A DNA stretch of 64,000 nucleotides from Escherichia phage EC6, in the sequence record JX560968. One strand, given 5' to 3'. Below the pieces are notes generated by a model. It was not told where the DNA came from. It worked only from the letters and a program-made list of their open reading frames with translations, and ran no database searches. Both the position numbers and the translations under genes were made by a program. Below are positions 4,128 through 18,278 of the stretch, piece after piece (the stretch's first letter is position 1; the number at the start of each line of letters is the position of its first letter).

Positions 4128-5480
4128 ATGTGGAATCCAATTGTTAATGTAGATATTACATTGAACACCGCAGGAACTACAAGAGAAGGTTTTGGGCTGC
4201 CACTATTTTTAGCTTCAACAGATAACTTTGAAGAAAGAGTCCGTGGTTACACTTCCTTAACTGAAGTTGCTGAAGATTTCGATGAAAATTCTGCTGCATA
4301 TAAGGCTGCTAAACAACTTTGGAGTCAGACTCCTAAAGTAACTCAGCTTTATATTGGTAGACGTGCTATGCAGTACACTGTATCAATTCCTGATGAGGTT
4401 ACTGAGAGCACCGACTATTCTTTAACTGTAGCTGTGAGCGGTGGAGTTTCTCAGCCATTCCAGTACACTTCACAGTCAGAAGATACTGCTGAGAAGGTGC
4501 TACAGCAGCTTAAAACTCAGATTGAAGCAGAACCTTCTGTAAAAGACCTTGTTACTGTCAATGTAACTGGTGCTGGCGGTTCAGCAACAATGGTAATCAC
4601 CAAAGCTGGTGTCAACGACTTCGTGAAGGTTACTACTACAGCACAAACAGTGTCAATTGCAAGCACAACTGCTGACACAGCATCGACTGCTCTGGCAGCT
4701 ATTGAAGCGTATTCAACTGACTGGTATTTCATTGCAGCAGAAGACAGAACTCAACAGTTTGTCTTAGCAATGGCTTCTGAGATTCAAGCTCGTAAGAAGA
4801 TTTTCTTTACAGCTAACTCCGATGTAGCAGCACTGCAAGGTACAGAATTAGCGAGTGCAAATGATGTTCCAGCACAGCTTGCTAAGAATCAGTACACTCG
4901 TACAGTTTGCTTGTGGCATCACACAGCAGCAGAAGACTATCCAGAAATGGCTTATATTGCTTATGGTGCTCCGTATGATGCAGGTTCAATTGCTTGGGGT
5001 AACGCACAGCTAACTGGCGTAGCTGCTTCTCTACAGCCATCTAATCAGAGACCTCTGACAAGTATTCAGAAGTCAGCTTTAGATGCACGTCACTGTAACT
5101 TTATTGACCTTGATGGTGGTGTTCCAGTGGTTCGTAGAGGGATTACTTCTGGTGGGGAATGGATTGATATCATCCGTGGTGTTGACTGGTTAGAATCAGA
5201 CCTGAAAACTTCTCTGAGAGACTTGCTAATTAACCAGAAGGGTGGTAAGATTACTTATGATGATACTGGTATTACCCGTATTCGTCAAGTCATTGAAACC
5301 TCTCTGCAAAGAGCAGTCAACAGAAACTTCCTGTCATCTTACACAGTTAATGTTCCTAAAGCCTCTCAAGTTGCTTTGGCAGACAAGAAAGCTCGTATCC
5401 TGAAAGATGTTACCTTCGCAGGTATCTTGGCAGGGGCTATCTTGGATGTTGACTTGAAAGGTACAGTGGCTTACGAATAA
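4128..5480 (+). CDS. tail sheath protein (putative)
   Basis: 450-aa ORF followed by a 148-aa tube-sized ORF, chaperone pair and tape measure: canonical contractile-tail order. Confidence 0.5.
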   Translation: MWNPIVNVDITLNTAGTTREGFGLPLFLASTDNFEERVRGYTSLTEVAEDFDENSAAYKAAKQLWSQTPKVTQLYIGRRAMQYTVSIPDEVTESTDYSLTVAVSGGVSQPFQYTSQSEDTAEKVLQQLKTQIEAEPSVKDLVTVNVTGAGGSATMVITKAGVNDFVKVTTTAQTVSIASTTADTASTALAAIEAYSTDWYFIAAEDRTQQFVLAMASEIQARKKIFFTANSDVAALQGTELASANDVPAQLAKNQYTRTVCLWHHTAAEDYPEMAYIAYGAPYDAGSIAWGNAQLTGVAASLQPSNQRPLTSIQKSALDARHCNFIDLDGGVPVVRRGITSGGEWIDIIRGVDWLESDLKTSLRDLLINQKGGKITYDDTGITRIRQVIETSLQRAVNRNFLSSYTVNVPKASQVALADKKARILKDVTFAGILAGAILDVDLKGTVAYE

Positions 5481-5495
5481 TAGAGGTAAATTGGA

Positions 5496-5942
5496 ATGGC
5501 TATGTATCAGCAATATTCCCCTAAAGACGTTGTGTGTAGCTGGAATGGTATTGCCATTGAAGGCTTTGCCCCAGACTCATTCTTACGTCTACAGAGAACA
5601 TCACCACTTGTGACACCAGTTGTAGGTGCAGGTGGTCAGGTTGCTCTGACAAGAAGTGCAGACAAGACAGGTACTATTGAGATTGAGCTAATGCAGACTT
5701 CTCTCTCTAATCAGATGCTTTCTGCAATTCAAGCTAAACAAGACAATATGGAACTTGAAGAAGATATCTCTTCTAACTTCGTAATCTACGACCCATCAGG
5801 CTCTGTTCTGGCAACTGGTATTAATGCTTGGTTGCAGGAATTACCACAGATTGAACTTGGTCGTGACCAGAACTCTAAAACTTGGATTTTTGGTTGTGAG
5901 AAGCTAGACTACACTTCTACAATTCCAGCGTCAAGTGTTTAA
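5496..5942 (+). CDS. tail tube protein (putative)
   Basis: 148-aa ORF between sheath and chaperone genes. Confidence 0.45.
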   Translation: MAMYQQYSPKDVVCSWNGIAIEGFAPDSFLRLQRTSPLVTPVVGAGGQVALTRSADKTGTIEIELMQTSLSNQMLSAIQAKQDNMELEEDISSNFVIYDPSGSVLATGINAWLQELPQIELGRDQNSKTWIFGCEKLDYTSTIPASSV

Positions 5943-5954
5943 TAAATCCTATAA

Positions 5955-5994
5955 GGGGGAGACTTTAAAAGGTCTTCCCCTTTTTGTTTCTTTT
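5955..5994 (+). terminator. rho-independent terminator
   Basis: GGGGGAGAC...GTCTTCCCC stem (9 bp with one G-U) followed by TTTTTGTTTCTTTT. Confidence 0.6.
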
Positions 5995-6014
5995 AAAAGT
6001 ATTAAGGAATCACA

Positions 6015-6413
6015 ATGAAAACAGAATCTAGAGTAATTAACGGTAAGAAAGTAAATATCGTTCTGCTTGGGGCAAGAGATGGTATTAAGATGTCTATGAA
6101 GTTGGGTAAAATTGTTGTTCCAACATTTGCACAGATGCTGTCAAGCCTGACTGATAAAGATAAGAAAGAAGCTCCAATGGTTCCATTTAAAGAACTTGTT
6201 GAAGCTTGTTTTGACAGAATTGAAGAAATTAACCTTGAAGAAATGGCTACCCTGTTATTTCAAGGTGCAACTGTTGATGACTTCCCACTTAATATTGATA
6301 CATACTTCCAAGCAAACTACGGTGAATTTATTGATTACTTAGCATTTGCGCTGGAGGCAAACTTCGGAAGTTTTTTCGAAGCAAGCATTTTCAAAAGCCT
6401 AACTTCTCAGTAA
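6015..6413 (+). CDS. tail assembly chaperone (gpG/E-like)
   Basis: 132-aa acidic ORF immediately upstream of tape measure gene; followed by -1 frame ORF. Confidence 0.5.
   Translation: MKTESRVINGKKVNIVLLGARDGIKMSMKLGKIVVPTFAQMLSSLTDKDKKEAPMVPFKELVEACFDRIEEINLEEMATLLFQGATVDDFPLNIDTYFQANYGEFIDYLAFALEANFGSFFEASIFKSLTSQ
6371..6377 (+). other. putative -1 programmed ribosomal frameshift slippery heptamer T TTT TTC
   Basis: Heptamer X XXY YYZ in frame of ORF 6015..6413, 12 codons before its stop; -1 frame is open from here through ORF 6416..6655. Confidence 0.45.
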
Positions 6414-6415
6414 AC

Positions 6416-6654
6416 ATGGGTAACACTCTACAGACACCACTGACTGATGCTGCTGTAGAGGCAACCTATGAAGAAGCAGACGAGATGAAATTTGTGCTTG
6501 CTATTTATGGTATGGAAGGGTGTAAAGAAACACTTGACCAACTCTTTGCTATGACATTCTCTGATTTATTATCATTGAGACAATTTCTTGAGATTCAGAG
6601 GTCGTATAAAGAGGAAATTGCTTACAACGAACTTAGAAGAGCAGGAAAAATGTA

Positions 6655-6655
<1 letters not shown>
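6416..6655 (+). CDS. tail assembly chaperone frameshift extension (gpGT/E'-like)
   Basis: 79-aa ORF in -1 frame relative to 6015..6413, ends at tape measure start. Confidence 0.45.
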
Positions 6656-12054
<5,399 letters not shown>

Positions 12055-15907: not shown

Positions 15908-17533
15908 ATGGCAGATTACAAATTGAGTCAATTAAACTCAATCGACACAATTCGTTCAGAAGACCTATTGCACATCAGAGTTAAGAAAAGACCTGAAATG
16001 TTGGGTGACGAAGACCGTAGAATGACCTATCAAGACTTCTTAGCTTCTTTCAAACTAGAAAGGTTTGTTCAGATTGCTGGGAGCACTATGACGGGGGATT
16101 TAGGTATTGTCAAGTTACTTTACGGTGGTAAGGTAGTATTTGACCCTACAGATTCTTCTGAGATTACTCTTGGGGATATTTTAAAGACTTTTAAAATCAA
16201 CTCAAATGGGCTTAAACTCACTATTGCAGATGCCACAAGGTCAGCAACTGTTTATCATACTTTGAATAAACCAAGTCCTAATGAACTTGGCATGAGAACT
16301 AATGAAGAGAATGATGCAAGATATTCAAGGCTTGCTGTTACAAATAACTTCAGTATTAGGCAAGCAATTGTAACTGATGGTGAGCAGTTAACTCTTAAGA
16401 AGGCAACCAATACAGGTGCTTCATATATTCAAGGTAGAGATGCTAATAACCAGCAAACTTGGTATGTTGGACAGGGAAATGCAAACAGTACTAATGTTTA
16501 TTTGTACAATCATGCTACTGGTGCAATGTTAACCCTTGATGCAACAGCAGCATTTAACAAGTCACTTAGAATCGTTGGTCAAGTTCAACCTTCGGATTTC
16601 TCTAACTTAGATGCTAGATACTTCACTCAGACAGTCGCTAATCAGAGATTTGCACAGTTAGCTGGCAATAATACTTTTACAGGTGCTAATACATTTAATA
16701 ACTATATCAGTGTGAACTCTAATGCTGCTGCTATCGTGCTAAAAAATAAGTCTGCTAATGAGTCTTTGTACATCCTAGCAAAAGATGTTGAAAACAATAA
16801 TCTGTGGTTTATTGGTAAAGGTAGTGCAAATGACAATATCACATTTTATGATTACAAGGGCAATACTTCTATTGTATTAAACTCGTCTGGTGCTGCATTC
16901 AGCAAGACTGTAAAAATCACTGGTCAAGTCCAACCTTCAGATTGGACTAACATTGACTCTAGATATATTCCGGCAGCTACTTTGAGCAATCTTGCTAAAA
17001 TTAATGTAGCTAACACATTTACCTCCCAGCAAATTATCCAAGCAAATGGTGAAGCTATTAGGCTAAAAAACTCTTCTGAGAACTCACCATTGTATATCAG
17101 AGCACAGGACAACACTGGTGCTTATAGGTGGTATGTAGGTAATGGCTCGGGGGGTGATGATGTCACCATCCGCAATCACAAGACAGATTGTGAGGTTATC
17201 CTATCTAGTGTCGTTGCTATTAATAAAACATTAAGCATCACTGGTCAAGTTAAACCCTCAGATTTCTCTAACTTAGATGCTAGATATTACACGCAATCTA
17301 CCGCAAACTCTAGGTATATGCTTGCTTACTCTTCTGGCAGTGGTACAGAGGTGGGTGAGAGTGATGGTATTGTTTGGAATGCTAAAACTGGTCTGTATAA
17401 TGTGTATGATAAATCTGGTGGCGCAACACAGCTAGTCTACCATATGTATCAGGGTGCAAGTTCTACACCATCTGCACAGTTTAAGTTTATCTACAGGAAT
17501 GGTGGTAGTTTTTTACAGGACAGCACGAGATAG
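15908..17533 (+). CDS. tail fiber protein with three internal ~110-aa repeats
   Basis: Each repeat ends ITGQV(Q/K)PSD(F/W)(S/T)N(L/I)D(A/S)RY; near-identical DNA copies at 16576-16620 and 17243-17287. Confidence 0.55.
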   Translation: MADYKLSQLNSIDTIRSEDLLHIRVKKRPEMLGDEDRRMTYQDFLASFKLERFVQIAGSTMTGDLGIVKLLYGGKVVFDPTDSSEITLGDILKTFKINSNGLKLTIADATRSATVYHTLNKPSPNELGMRTNEENDARYSRLAVTNNFSIRQAIVTDGEQLTLKKATNTGASYIQGRDANNQQTWYVGQGNANSTNVYLYNHATGAMLTLDATAAFNKSLRIVGQVQPSDFSNLDARYFTQTVANQRFAQLAGNNTFTGANTFNNYISVNSNAAAIVLKNKSANESLYILAKDVENNNLWFIGKGSANDNITFYDYKGNTSIVLNSSGAAFSKTVKITGQVQPSDWTNIDSRYIPAATLSNLAKINVANTFTSQQIIQANGEAIRLKNSSENSPLYIRAQDNTGAYRWYVGNGSGGDDVTIRNHKTDCEVILSSVVAINKTLSITGQVKPSDFSNLDARYYTQSTANSRYMLAYSSGSGTEVGESDGIVWNAKTGLYNVYDKSGGATQLVYHMYQGASSTPSAQFKFIYRNGGSFLQDSTR

Positions 17534-18278
17534 GTATGGTTTTGAGCAGGCATGGGCTAAAATCTATACAGACCAAGATAAACCAACCCCTTCAGAGATT
17601 GGTGCATACACTAAAGCTGAAACTGACCAGAAGATTGCAGAAGCAATCAGTGACTCTACAGACTTGAATAAAATCTATCCAGTAGGTATTGTAACGTGGT
17701 TTAACAGTAATGTTAACCCTAATACAGCACTTCCTGGTCTAACTTGGACGTACCTGAATAATGGTGTTGGTAGAACTATCAGAATTGCAGCAGCAAATGG
17801 TTCAGATGTTGCTACAACTGGTGGTTCAGACTCTGTAACGTTATCTGTTGGTAACTTACCTTCACATACGCATAGCTTCTCTGCTACCACTTCATCATTT
17901 GATTATGGTACTAAGACTTCTAGTACAACTGGTAACCATAACCATAACAGAGGTACTATGGAAATCTCAGGTGCATTTGGTTGGTTCAGAAGTGACAATA
18001 GTTCATTCTACACTGCGAGTGGAGCATTCGTGATGGGGAGCAGTCAGGCTTCGCATGGCTTCACAGGCTCTAACTTCACTTATGGTGCTCCTGTTGATTT
18101 CCACGCGTCAAGAACTTGGACAGGTGCAACCAACACAACAGGTAACCATAGCCATACTGTAGGTATTGGTGCTCACAGCCACACAGTTAGTGGTAACACA
18201 GGTGGTACTGGTTCTGGTTCAGCATTTAGTGTTACTAACCAGTTCTACAAGTTAATGGCTTGGGTAAGAACTGCTTAA
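17454..18278 (+). CDS. tail fiber C-terminal tip domain (separate ORF, or 3' part of 15908 gene after a +1 frame change at T6 run 17509-17514)
   Basis: HxH boxes (SHTHSFSATT, NHNHNRGT, NHSHTVGIGAHSHTVSG) and C-terminus ...AFSVTNQFYKLMAWVRTA paralogous to tip of 14686..15861; no convincing own RBS/start. Confidence 0.45.
   Translation: MQVLHHLHSLSLSTGMVVVFYRTARDRYGFEQAWAKIYTDQDKPTPSEIGAYTKAETDQKIAEAISDSTDLNKIYPVGIVTWFNSNVNPNTALPGLTWTYLNNGVGRTIRIAAANGSDVATTGGSDSVTLSVGNLPSHTHSFSATTSSFDYGTKTSSTTGNHNHNRGTMEISGAFGWFRSDNSSFYTASGAFVMGSSQASHGFTGSNFTYGAPVDFHASRTWTGATNTTGNHSHTVGIGAHSHTVSGNTGGTGSGSAFSVTNQFYKLMAWVRTA

What the first reader, a model, noticed from the sequence alone, without database searches (positions are those of the whole stretch)
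6371..6377. Probable -1 programmed frameshift in the tail assembly chaperone pair
The heptamer T TTT TTC sits in the zero frame 12 codons before the stop of ORF 6015..6413. The -1 frame is open from that point through ORF 6416..6655, which has no independent RBS and ends where the tape measure gene starts. This is the conserved arrangement of chaperone frameshift products upstream of tape measure genes. The T6 run could alternatively be a homopolymer error.
Basis: partly seen in the sequence, partly recalled or inferred. Interest (0 to 1): 0.45.

Follow-up and report, generated by a model that had tools for sequence, protein, structure and literature searches.

The report
Known tail-chaperone frameshift, Felix O1-type phage
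This is the standard programmed -1 ribosomal frameshift that lets a tailed phage make a short and a long version of its tail assembly chaperone, here in a Felix O1-like phage; the site is real and strongly conserved, but it is already annotated in sister genomes and so is ordinary.

Summary
T TTT TTC (6371-6377) lies in the zero frame of the 132-aa tail assembly chaperone gene (6015-6413). The -1 frame is open for 92 codons from 6377 to a stop at 6653-6655, which overlaps the tape-measure ATG (6655).

The window is a Felixounavirus, 99.7% identical to Escherichia phage vB_EcoM_DE17.

The T6 run is not a sequencing error. 200 phage records carry the identical 61-mer, and only one (CL1) has T7.

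The same in-frame heptamer, with a 92-131 codon -1 ORF ending at or just before the tape-measure gene, is present in every relative examined:
- Ounavirinae: Mooglevirus, Suspvirus, Kolesnikvirus, and Hafnia and Pectobacterium phages.
- Vequintavirinae (rV5-like), where the chaperone is only 26-29% identical.

In Kolesnikvirus, Hafnia and Pectobacterium phages the -1 ORF has no start codon at its head. Identity of synonymous codons peaks at the site.

I found no conserved stimulatory RNA structure. A GGAGG 13 nt upstream is present in only 5 of 9 lineages.

The frameshift is already deposited as a joined CDS. My modelled fusion for Salmonella phage Mushroom is residue-for-residue identical to AJF40599.1, and the window's product differs from it by one residue. 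Genome announcements for Moogle and Mijalis also mention it. I found no direct experimental proof for this phage group.

Verdict: interpretation supported, already known, low interest.

The parts
4128..5480 (+). Tail sheath gene (450 aa); context only
   Evidence: phrog_205 tail sheath 1.6e-125 and PF11863. Annotated as tail sheath in vB_EcoM_H12.
5496..5942 (+). Tail tube / virion structural protein gene (148 aa). It is the presumed binding partner of the T domain.
   Evidence: phrog_280 3.8e-47 and PF11681 KPP10_Orf10. Annotated as 'tail tube protein' in Erwinia phage Omen.
5953..5992 (+). Intrinsic terminator-like hairpin with a T tract, between the tube gene and the chaperone gene
   Evidence: 13-bp stem with 6 GC pairs, followed by TTTGTTTCTT. 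The equivalent site is annotated as a terminator in Citrobacter phage Mordin.
6004..6008 (+). Shine-Dalgarno-like AAGGA, 6 nt before the ATG of the chaperone gene
   Evidence: Read from the sequence. A ribosome_binding_site is annotated at the same place in Mushroom and Mordin.
6015..6413 (+). Zero-frame product 'G': tail assembly chaperone of 132 aa, made by ribosomes that do not shift
   Evidence: PF21822 Phage_TAC_15 at 1.2e-19 (71.5 bits against a cutoff of 22), and phrog_1613 at 7.9e-49.
6353..6357 (+). Internal GGAGG 13 nt upstream of the heptamer. It is a candidate Shine-Dalgarno-like stimulator, not a required part.
   Evidence: Read from the sequence. It is present in 5 of 9 lineages compared and lost through synonymous changes in Hafnia, Kolesnikvirus, CR8 and W70. 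Sharma et al. 2014 searched for stimulatory SD-like sequences 6-17 nt upstream of such motifs (PMC4066793).
6371..6377 (+). Slippery heptamer T TTT TTC, the site of the -1 shift. Two tRNA-Phe re-pair from UUU UUC to UUU UUU.
   Evidence: GTTTTTTC is invariant in all 9 lineages aligned. U_UU.Y is the second most shift-prone tetramer class in E. coli (PMC4066793).
6377..6655 (+). -1 frame extension 'T': 92 codons plus a stop. Joined to residues 1-121 of G it gives the 213-aa GT fusion. It includes the mechanically listed ORF 6416..6655.
   Evidence: phrog_4963 at 2.8e-55. The equivalent fusion deposited for Mushroom (AJF40599.1) is identical to the model built the same way.
6655..8898 (+). Tape measure protein gene (747 aa). 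Its ATG overlaps the stop of the -1 ORF by one base.
   Evidence: phrog_4036 (1511 bits) and PF20155 TMP_3.

Best explanation
The site is a programmed -1 ribosomal frameshift in the tail assembly chaperone gene of a Felix O1-like myovirus.

Most ribosomes read 6015..6413 straight through and make the 132-aa chaperone (G). A minority slip back one base when the two tRNA-Phe sit on UUU-UUC (6372-6377). They re-pair on UUU-UUU (6371-6376), read CGA (6377-6379) next, and continue for 92 codons to the stop at 6653-6655. This makes a 213-aa fusion (GT).

By analogy with lambda gpG/gpGT, the shared G part binds the tape measure protein. The T part recruits the tail tube protein. The fixed G:GT ratio set by the slip frequency is needed for correct tail assembly, and neither protein ends up in the virion.

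What is shown here: the sequence anatomy, the family assignments, the deep conservation, and the agreement with deposited joined CDSs.

What is inferred: that the shift actually occurs, how often it occurs, and the binding roles of G and T.

The signal appears to consist essentially of the heptamer alone. An upstream GGAGG may help in some lineages.
For: Anatomy and gene order. The order sheath, tube, terminator, TAC, -1 ORF, TMP is seen. The heptamer is in the correct register, and the -1 frame is open for 92 codons ending on the TMP start.

Baseline. This is the longest -1 opening among 86 in-frame heptamers in the window; the next is 50 and most are 0-10 codons.

Conservation in Ounavirinae. 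The same heptamer with a 92-98 codon -1 ORF occurs in Mooglevirus, Suspvirus, Kolesnikvirus, Hafnia phage SarahDanielle, Pectobacterium phage Wc4-1 and metagenomic L067.

Conservation in Vequintavirinae. CR8, W70 and Av-05 carry it at the homologous N[FY]G[SC]FF motif, with 129-131 codon -1 ORFs, although their chaperone is only 26-29% identical.

No independent start. In Kolesnikvirus, Hafnia and Pectobacterium phages the -1 ORF has no ATG before its conserved N-terminal part. That part can therefore only be reached by a shift.

Nucleotide-level constraint.
- blastn of Erwinia phages matches only window positions 6360-6400, at 92.7% identity.
- Codon identity among identical residues rises from about 0.3-0.6 to 0.86-0.91 across the site, the maximum in the gene.

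T6 is the wild-type state: 200 records have the identical 61-mer.

Prior annotation.
- Joined CDSs exist in Mushroom and Mordin.
- My modelled fusions are identical to AJF40599.1/YP_009600435.1 and to YP_009177317.1.
- The frameshift is stated for Moogle (PMC4319497) and Mijalis (PMC5543628).

Motif class. U_UU.Y is a shift-prone class in E. coli, and motifs with X and Z of the same base class (all purines or all pyrimidines), as in this all-U heptamer, shift best (PMC4066793).

Mechanistic model. The gpG/gpGT model is taken from the review PMC5009743.
Against: I found no experimental demonstration for any Felix O1-like or rV5-like phage in the literature library.

There is no conserved downstream stimulatory structure:
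- The alifold consensus energy is -0.46 kcal/mol with no compensatory pairs.
- The only stable hairpin in the window starts 44 nt downstream of the heptamer.

The upstream GGAGG is present in only 5 of 9 lineages.

In Felixounavirus itself the -1 ORF does carry an ATG (6416), 2 nt after the G stop. Some independent translation of a 79-aa product by termination-reinitiation therefore cannot be excluded.

A +1 U insertion by RNA polymerase would give the same protein sequence.
Confidence: 0.88

Rival explanations
1. There are two separate genes. The 79-aa ORF 6416..6655 is translated on its own by termination-reinitiation at the TAA-AC-ATG junction, and no fusion protein is needed.
For: An ATG lies 2 nt after the ORF1 stop in Felixounavirus and Suspvirus. 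Most deposited records annotate two separate CDSs. In Mordin an ATG in the -1 frame is preceded by GGAAGG.
Against: There is no SD before 6416.

In Kolesnikvirus, Hafnia, Pectobacterium and L067 relatives no ATG precedes the conserved N-terminal part of the T region. Gene callers there produce either nothing or spurious fragments.

This model does not explain several observations:
- The in-frame heptamer is invariant over two subfamilies.
- The -1 frame stays open between the heptamer and the ATG in every lineage.
- Synonymous codon identity peaks at the site.
Confidence: 0.06
2. The same GT fusion is made by transcriptional slippage. RNA polymerase inserts one extra U in the U6 run, and translation is then standard.
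For: A T7 allele (phage CL1) encodes exactly the predicted fusion in a single ORF, so a +1 U mRNA would give the same protein. The terminator scan flagged a weak hairpin (6351-6367) directly before the T run. Nascent-RNA hairpins can stimulate slippage (the review PMC5009743, citing Penno et al. 2015).
Against: From my own knowledge, not tested here: a run of six is short for productive slippage by bacterial RNA polymerase, which usually needs about 8-9 or more.

The upstream hairpin is neither conserved nor more stable than shuffled sequence. The consensus energy is 0 with no predicted pairs, and the z-score for the window is -0.66.

Selection keeps the precise X XXY YYZ register, including the T at the end of the preceding codon (AGT or TGT) and the C after the run. 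That register matters for tRNA re-pairing and not for polymerase slippage.
Confidence: 0.04
3. The frame break is a sequencing or assembly error, or a pseudogenising indel, in a homopolymer. The true gene is one continuous 213-aa ORF.
For: One record (Escherichia phage CL1, OK040806.1) has T7 and a single 213-aa CDS.
Against: 200 independently deposited phage records carry the identical T6 61-mer, and only CL1 carries T7.

About 29 related IMG/VR contigs have the T6 form. Neither of the two T7 16-mer hits is related, and no T5 form was found.

T6 is kept in genera as far apart as 26-44% protein identity.
Confidence: 0.01

Closest known systems
Deposited frameshifted tape measure chaperone of Salmonella phage Mushroom (AJF40599.1 / YP_009600435.1; Felixounavirus), and of the Mooglevirus phages Mordin, Michonne and Moogle
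   Same: Same gene, same heptamer and same join. The fusion modelled by a -1 shift at T TTT TTC reproduces the deposited Mushroom protein exactly. The window's fusion differs from it at one residue, S5F. The region is 97.2% identical at the DNA level.
   Different: Nothing of substance differs. The closest records (99.6-99.7% identical) annotate two separate CDSs rather than a join: hypothetical proteins in vB_EcoM_DE17 and tail assembly chaperone x2 in vB_EcoM_H12.
Phage lambda gpG/gpGT -1 frameshift, and the conserved tail-assembly frameshift of dsDNA phages (Levin et al. 1993; Xu, Hendrix & Duda 2004, 2013, 2014, as cited in PMC5009743)
   Same: - Two overlapping ORFs lie between the tail tube gene and the tape measure gene.
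- The slippery heptamer is near the end of the first ORF.
- The second ORF is in the -1 frame and ends at the TMP gene.
- No strong stimulatory structure is needed.
- A long fusion is made as a minor product.
   Different: - The heptamer is T TTT TTC. From my own knowledge, not tested here, lambda uses G GGA AAG.
- This phage has a contractile tail, with a sheath gene upstream.
- The chaperone belongs to the Pfam family Phage_TAC_15, and I did not test sequence similarity to lambda gpG.
- The frameshift frequency and the protein interactions have not been measured.
E. coli dnaX -1 frameshift (A AAA AAG, with an upstream SD-like element and a downstream hairpin)
   Same: It is a -1 shift on a homopolymeric heptamer. 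In this window a GGAGG sits 13 nt upstream, inside the 6-17 nt range that Sharma et al. 2014 searched for stimulatory SD-like sequences.
   Different: There is no conserved downstream hairpin. The SD-like element is not conserved. The shifted product here is longer than the zero-frame product, not shorter.
Tail assembly chaperone locus of rV5-like phages (Vequintavirinae: CR8, W70, Av-05)
   Same: The TAC is homologous at 26-29% identity. The same T TTT TTC sits at the homologous ...GCFF motif, and the -1 ORF of 129-131 codons ends just before the TMP gene.
   Different: The -1 extension is longer and is not alignable by tblastn. The three records examined annotate the downstream part as a separate hypothetical protein and not as a join.

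Membership tests
Conserved tail assembly chaperone -1 programmed frameshift (lambda G/GT type; Xu, Hendrix & Duda 2004) | Two ORFs located between the major tail (tube) gene and the tape measure gene | tested here: met
   The order is tube 5496-5942, ORFs 6015-6413 and 6416-6655, then TMP 6655-8898.
Conserved tail assembly chaperone -1 programmed frameshift (lambda G/GT type; Xu, Hendrix & Duda 2004) | [quoted passage not shown] | tested here: met
   T TTT TTC lies at 6371-6377, 12 codons before the stop. The -1 frame is open from 14 codons upstream of it.
Conserved tail assembly chaperone -1 programmed frameshift (lambda G/GT type; Xu, Hendrix & Duda 2004) | The second ORF is in the -1 frame and lacks its own translation start signals | tested here: met
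   The frame offset was verified. No SD precedes 6416. No ATG stands at the head of the -1 ORF in Kolesnikvirus, Hafnia, Pectobacterium or L067 relatives. Caveat: an ATG does exist in Felixounavirus itself.
Conserved tail assembly chaperone -1 programmed frameshift (lambda G/GT type; Xu, Hendrix & Duda 2004) | The arrangement and the slip site are conserved among diverged relatives | tested here: met
   Nine lineages in two subfamilies keep GTTTTTTC and the open -1 frame. Synonymous codon identity peaks at the site.
Conserved tail assembly chaperone -1 programmed frameshift (lambda G/GT type; Xu, Hendrix & Duda 2004) | The first ORF belongs to a recognised tail assembly chaperone family | tested here: met
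   PF21822 Phage_TAC_15 scores 71.5 bits against a cutoff of 22. phrog_1613 scores 7.9e-49, and phrog_4963 matches the second ORF.
Conserved tail assembly chaperone -1 programmed frameshift (lambda G/GT type; Xu, Hendrix & Duda 2004) | Both the G and GT proteins are made, in a fixed ratio; both are required for tail assembly and absent from virions | not testable with these tools
   This needs protein-level experiments. I found no such data for Felix O1-like phages.
Conserved tail assembly chaperone -1 programmed frameshift (lambda G/GT type; Xu, Hendrix & Duda 2004) | The G part binds the tape measure protein and the T part binds the tail tube protein | not tested
   This is inferred from lambda (PMC5009743). 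A PDB sequence search with the fusion found no solved relative; the best E-value was 0.62.
dnaX-type stimulated -1 frameshift | A conserved SD-like element about 10-14 nt upstream of the heptamer | tested here: inconclusive
   GGAGG lies at 6353-6357, 13 nt upstream, but is present in only 5 of 9 lineages.
dnaX-type stimulated -1 frameshift | A conserved stable hairpin or pseudoknot 5-9 nt downstream of the heptamer | tested here: not met
   The consensus structure energy is -0.46 kcal/mol with no compensatory changes. The window's stable hairpin begins 44 nt downstream.
Programmed transcriptional slippage | A long homopolymer run (about 8-9 or more), or a shorter run with a conserved upstream nascent-RNA hairpin | tested here: not met
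   The run is T6 in all lineages. The upstream hairpin is not conserved and is no more stable than shuffled sequence.

The most novel reading that the evidence does not exclude
The frameshift signal of this large phage clade (Ounavirinae plus Vequintavirinae) works without either canonical stimulator. The 24 nt immediately downstream of the heptamer (CGAAGCAAGCATTTTCAAAAGCCT) is invariant across five Ounavirinae genera that otherwise share only about 43% protein identity. On this reading that segment would be a new kind of linear (unstructured) mRNA or nascent-peptide stimulator, rather than a simple by-product of dual coding.
Probability: 0.08. Interest if true: 0.35.

Novelty: already known. 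Interest (0 to 1): 0.1.

Why it matters
The practical value is for annotation. The closest records examined (vB_EcoM_DE17, vB_EcoM_H12, ekra and the Felix O1 RefSeq entry) annotate two separate genes here. A few records even label these genes as 'head closure protein' or 'tail completion protein'. The three rV5-like records I examined do not annotate the fusion at all.

A correct annotation would give one 132-aa chaperone plus one 213-aa product of ribosomal slippage, joined at 6377.

Biologically, the G:GT ratio set by this site is expected to be essential for making tails of the correct length. The site should therefore be left intact when such phages are engineered or recoded, since Felix O1-like phages are used for Salmonella and E. 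coli biocontrol.

It does not open any new question.

Tried and rejected
1. Downstream stimulatory RNA structure. RNAalifold on six genera gave essentially no structure (-0.46 kcal/mol, no covariation). The single-sequence fold places the only stable hairpin 44 nt downstream. Rejected as a conserved stimulator.

2. Upstream hairpin plus T run as a terminator-like element that promotes transcriptional slippage. It was flagged. It is not conserved (consensus energy 0, no pairs) and in the window is no more stable than shuffles. Rejected.

3. Homopolymer error. Rejected, and by scans of IMG/VR for T7 and T5 variants. The two T7 hits, L081 and L082, are unrelated sequences.

4. The 16-mer scan of viral contigs. 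It returned 69 loci, of which only about 29 are relatives. About 35 belong to an unrelated recurrent family where the 16-mer lies inside a different long ORF, and L025 is a chance match in an acidic repeat protein. These were not used as evidence.

5. PDB sequence search with the 213-aa fusion. No significant hit.

6. A measured frameshift frequency for U_UUU_UUC in Sharma et al. 2014. Only the class rules were retrievable from the text, with no number for this heptamer.

7. Experimental evidence for the fusion protein in Felix O1-like or rV5-like phages. Nothing was found. The Bas63 cryo-EM paper does not discuss it, because chaperones are not virion components.

8. A phage-encoded tRNA-Phe that might affect slippage. 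There are no tRNA genes in this window.

9. I did not run structure prediction or the large protein searches, because the answer did not depend on them.

Full report
**What is there**

The window is a Felix O1-like myovirus (genus Felixounavirus, subfamily Ounavirinae). Positions 5400-7000 are 99.7% identical to Escherichia phage vB_EcoM_DE17, and 293 phage records match.

Around the finding the + strand encodes, in order:
- the tail sheath (4128-5480; phrog_205, PF11863);
- a tube/virion structural protein (5496-5942; phrog_280, PF11681);
- a strong terminator-like hairpin (5953-5992);
- a 132-aa ORF (6015-6413; Pfam PF21822 Phage_TAC_15 at 1.2e-19; phrog_1613 'tail assembly chaperone' at 7.9e-49);
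- a 79-aa ORF (6416-6655; phrog_4963 'tail assembly chaperone' at 2.8e-55);
- the 747-aa tape measure protein (6655-8898; phrog_4036, PF20155).

**Check of the observation**

The sequence reads ...GGA AGT TTT TTC GAA..., with zero-frame codon starts at 6369, 6372 and 6375. T TTT TTC at 6371-6377 is therefore in the X XXY YYZ register. TTC is 12 codons before the TAA at 6411-6413.

The -1 frame continues from CGA (6377) as RSKHFQKPNFSVN-MGNTLQ... for 92 codons, to TAA at 6653-6655. The last base of that stop is the A of the tape-measure ATG. The predicted fusion is 213 aa.

No GGA, GAG or AGG occurs in the 20 nt before the ATG at 6416. ORF1 and the TMP gene both have AGGA-type sites.

**Is it more than chance?**

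I selected about 100 non-overlapping ORFs in the window (~19,900 codons). They contain 86 in-frame X_XXY_YYZ heptamers. After these heptamers the -1 frame is open for mostly 0-10 codons. The second longest is 50 codons, and this site has 92.

TTTTTTC occurs just once on the + strand of the 64-kb window. Both strands together have 10, against 28 expected from shuffles.

**Not a homopolymer error**

A 61-nt query centred on the run is 100% identical in 200 phage records. The T7 version is found in only one, Escherichia phage CL1, where the two ORFs are fused into a single 213-aa CDS. The CL1 protein has exactly the sequence predicted for the frameshift product apart from two unrelated substitutions.

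IMG/VR holds about 29 related contigs with the T6 form, no related contig with T7, and none with T5.

**Comparative evidence**

In every Ounavirinae lineage examined, T TTT TTC sits in frame 12-22 codons before the stop of the chaperone gene. The -1 frame then runs 92-98 codons and ends at, or within 9 nt of, the tape-measure start. The lineages are:
- Felixounavirus (Felix O1, Mushroom, ekra, H12);
- Mooglevirus (Mordin);
- Suspvirus (SUSP2);
- Kolesnikvirus (phiEa21-4, Omen);
- Hafnia phage SarahDanielle;
- Pectobacterium phage Wc4-1;
- metagenomic contig L067.

The same holds in three Vequintavirinae (Cronobacter phage CR8, Escherichia phages W70 and Av-05). Their chaperone is only 26-29% identical. 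The heptamer lies at the homologous N-Y-G-C-F-F motif, and the -1 frame is open for 129-131 codons. In an alignment of nine lineages, GTTTTTTC is the only invariant block.

In Kolesnikvirus, Hafnia and Pectobacterium phages the -1 ORF has no ATG ahead of its conserved N-terminal segment. Annotators there left the stretch empty or called spurious fragments. The conserved T region can therefore only be reached by a change of frame.

Constraint is also visible at the nucleotide level. blastn against Erwinia phages aligns nothing of the 751-nt query except window positions 6360-6400, at 92.7% identity. In a codon alignment of seven lineages, codon identity among identical residues rises from about 0.3-0.6 to 0.86-0.91 across the site, which is the maximum in the gene. 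One caveat is that L067 was found through the motif itself.

**Stimulators**

I found no conserved downstream structure. The consensus energy is -0.46 kcal/mol with no compensatory pairs. The window's only stable hairpin starts 44 nt downstream of the heptamer.

The terminator scan flagged a weak hairpin just upstream. It is not conserved, and in the window it is no more stable than shuffled sequence.

GGAGG at 6353-6357 lies 13 nt upstream. That falls in the 6-17 nt range in which Sharma et al. 2014 searched for stimulatory SD-like sequences (PMC4066793). It is present in only 5 of 9 lineages, and it is lost through synonymous changes in Hafnia. It may help but cannot be essential.

The 24 nt after the heptamer are invariant in five Ounavirinae genera but not in Pectobacterium phage Wc4-1, L067 or the rV5-like phages. 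The simplest reading is dual coding: FEASIFK in frame 0 and RSKHFQKP in frame -1.

In E. coli the U_UU.Y tetramer class ranks second only to A_AA.G. Heptamers in which X and Z are of the same base class (all purines or all pyrimidines), as here, are the most shift-prone (PMC4066793). A bare T TTT TTC is therefore a plausible low-level signal, as in lambda, where the G:GT ratio is about 30:1 (PMC5009743).

**Mechanism proposed**

Two tRNA-Phe on UUU-UUC slip back one base to UUU-UUU. Decoding resumes at CGA (6377). The result is a major 132-aa G product and a minor 213-aa GT product.

By analogy with lambda (PMC5009743), G and the G part of GT coat the tape measure protein. The T part recruits the tube protein. 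Both proteins leave the finished tail.

The sequence logic and its conservation are shown here. The occurrence and frequency of the shift, and the binding roles, are inferred.

**Rivals**

- Independent translation of the 79-aa ORF by reinitiation cannot be excluded in Felixounavirus itself. It does not explain the conservation pattern in the genera without an ATG.
- Transcriptional insertion of one U would give the same protein. A run of six is short for this, the hairpin is not conserved, and the register-specific conservation points to tRNA re-pairing.
- Sequencing error is excluded.

**Comparison with what is known**

This is the conserved tail-assembly frameshift of Xu, Hendrix and Duda (2004), and it has already been recognised in this very phage group:
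- Joined CDSs are deposited for Salmonella phage Mushroom (Felixounavirus) and Citrobacter phage Mordin.
- The fusions I built by a -1 shift at the heptamer are residue-for-residue identical to AJF40599.1/YP_009600435.1 (Mushroom) and to the Mordin/Michonne entry YP_009177317.1.
- The window's fusion differs from Mushroom's at one residue.
- The genome announcements of Moogle (PMC4319497) and Mijalis (PMC5543628) state the frameshift.

I found no experimental demonstration for this clade.

**Verdict**

The feature is already known. Interest is low (0.1). Its main use is to correct annotation, since most of the records examined, and all three rV5-like records I looked at, still list two separate genes.

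Noticed in passing
L007 757-763 (Escherichia phage CL1, OK040806.1, record ~84507-84513): CL1 has T7 instead of T6 at the slip site. Its chaperone is therefore annotated as one continuous 213-aa CDS that would make only the fusion and no short product. It is the only such record among about 290, so it is probably a homopolymer sequencing error, though it could be a real mutant.
   Followed up: partly
window 5953-5992 (+): A strong intrinsic-terminator-like hairpin (13-bp stem plus a T tract) lies between the tube gene and the chaperone gene, only about 20 nt before the chaperone RBS. The same site is annotated as a terminator in Mordin. It suggests that chaperone and tape-measure expression depends on read-through, and so is lower than sheath and tube expression.
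   Followed up: partly
window 17509-17515 (+): A second in-frame homopolymeric heptamer, T TTT TTA, lies 6 codons before the stop of the 541-aa ORF 15908..17533. Its -1 frame is open for 50 codons (small ORF 17536..17667), the second longest -1 opening in the window. The region is overlapped by a 274-aa ORF in the other frame (17454..18278), so this is probably chance.
   Followed up: no
L083 1248-1254, L084 1248-1254, L085 1173-1179 (Cronobacter phage CR8, Escherichia phages W70 and Av-05): rV5-like phages (Vequintavirinae) carry the same in-frame T TTT TTC in their homologous chaperone gene, with a 129-131 codon -1 ORF running to just before the tape measure gene. These three records annotate the downstream part as a separate hypothetical protein rather than as a frameshift product.
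   Followed up: partly
Relatives of window 6015-6655: records OQ871556/OQ871557 (SUT_S820/S920), OK040807 (C600M2), LR597658 and LR699048 (VpaE1_ev108/ev035): In several deposited genomes, features overlapping this locus are labelled 'head closure protein', 'tail completion protein' or similar. Cluster members of the 79-aa ORF carry the name 'head closure protein' for SUT_S820. These look like mis-annotations.
   Followed up: no
P0007; organism lists: A 132-aa Felixounavirus chaperone is deposited as a Staphylococcus hyicus protein (MCO4330224.1 / WP_252560994.1). Single 'Campylobacter' and 'Staphylococcus' phage records also match this enterobacterial phage locus at high identity. The likely cause is contamination or mislabelling in those assemblies.
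   Followed up: no
L014, L018, L020, L022 and about 30 other IMG/VR loci: An unrelated, recurrent family of viral contigs contains the exact 16-mer AAGTTTTTTCGAAGCA inside a different long ORF (at least 178 codons open in the frame that reads CGA after the run). It shows no similarity to the chaperone. It is presumably one abundant phage lineage that shares the word by chance.
   Followed up: no
L010 839-1044 (Erwinia phage Omen, PP278848.1): The T region, which has no start codon of its own in Kolesnikvirus, has been annotated as two short overlapping CDSs (839-958 and 931-1044). These look like gene-caller artefacts. phiEa21-4 leaves the same stretch unannotated.
   Followed up: partly
window 1-64000: ARAGORN finds no tRNA gene in the 64-kb window, although Felix O1-like phages are reported to carry about 22-25 tRNA genes (PMC5543628). 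The tRNA cluster must lie in the part of the genome outside the window.
   Followed up: no
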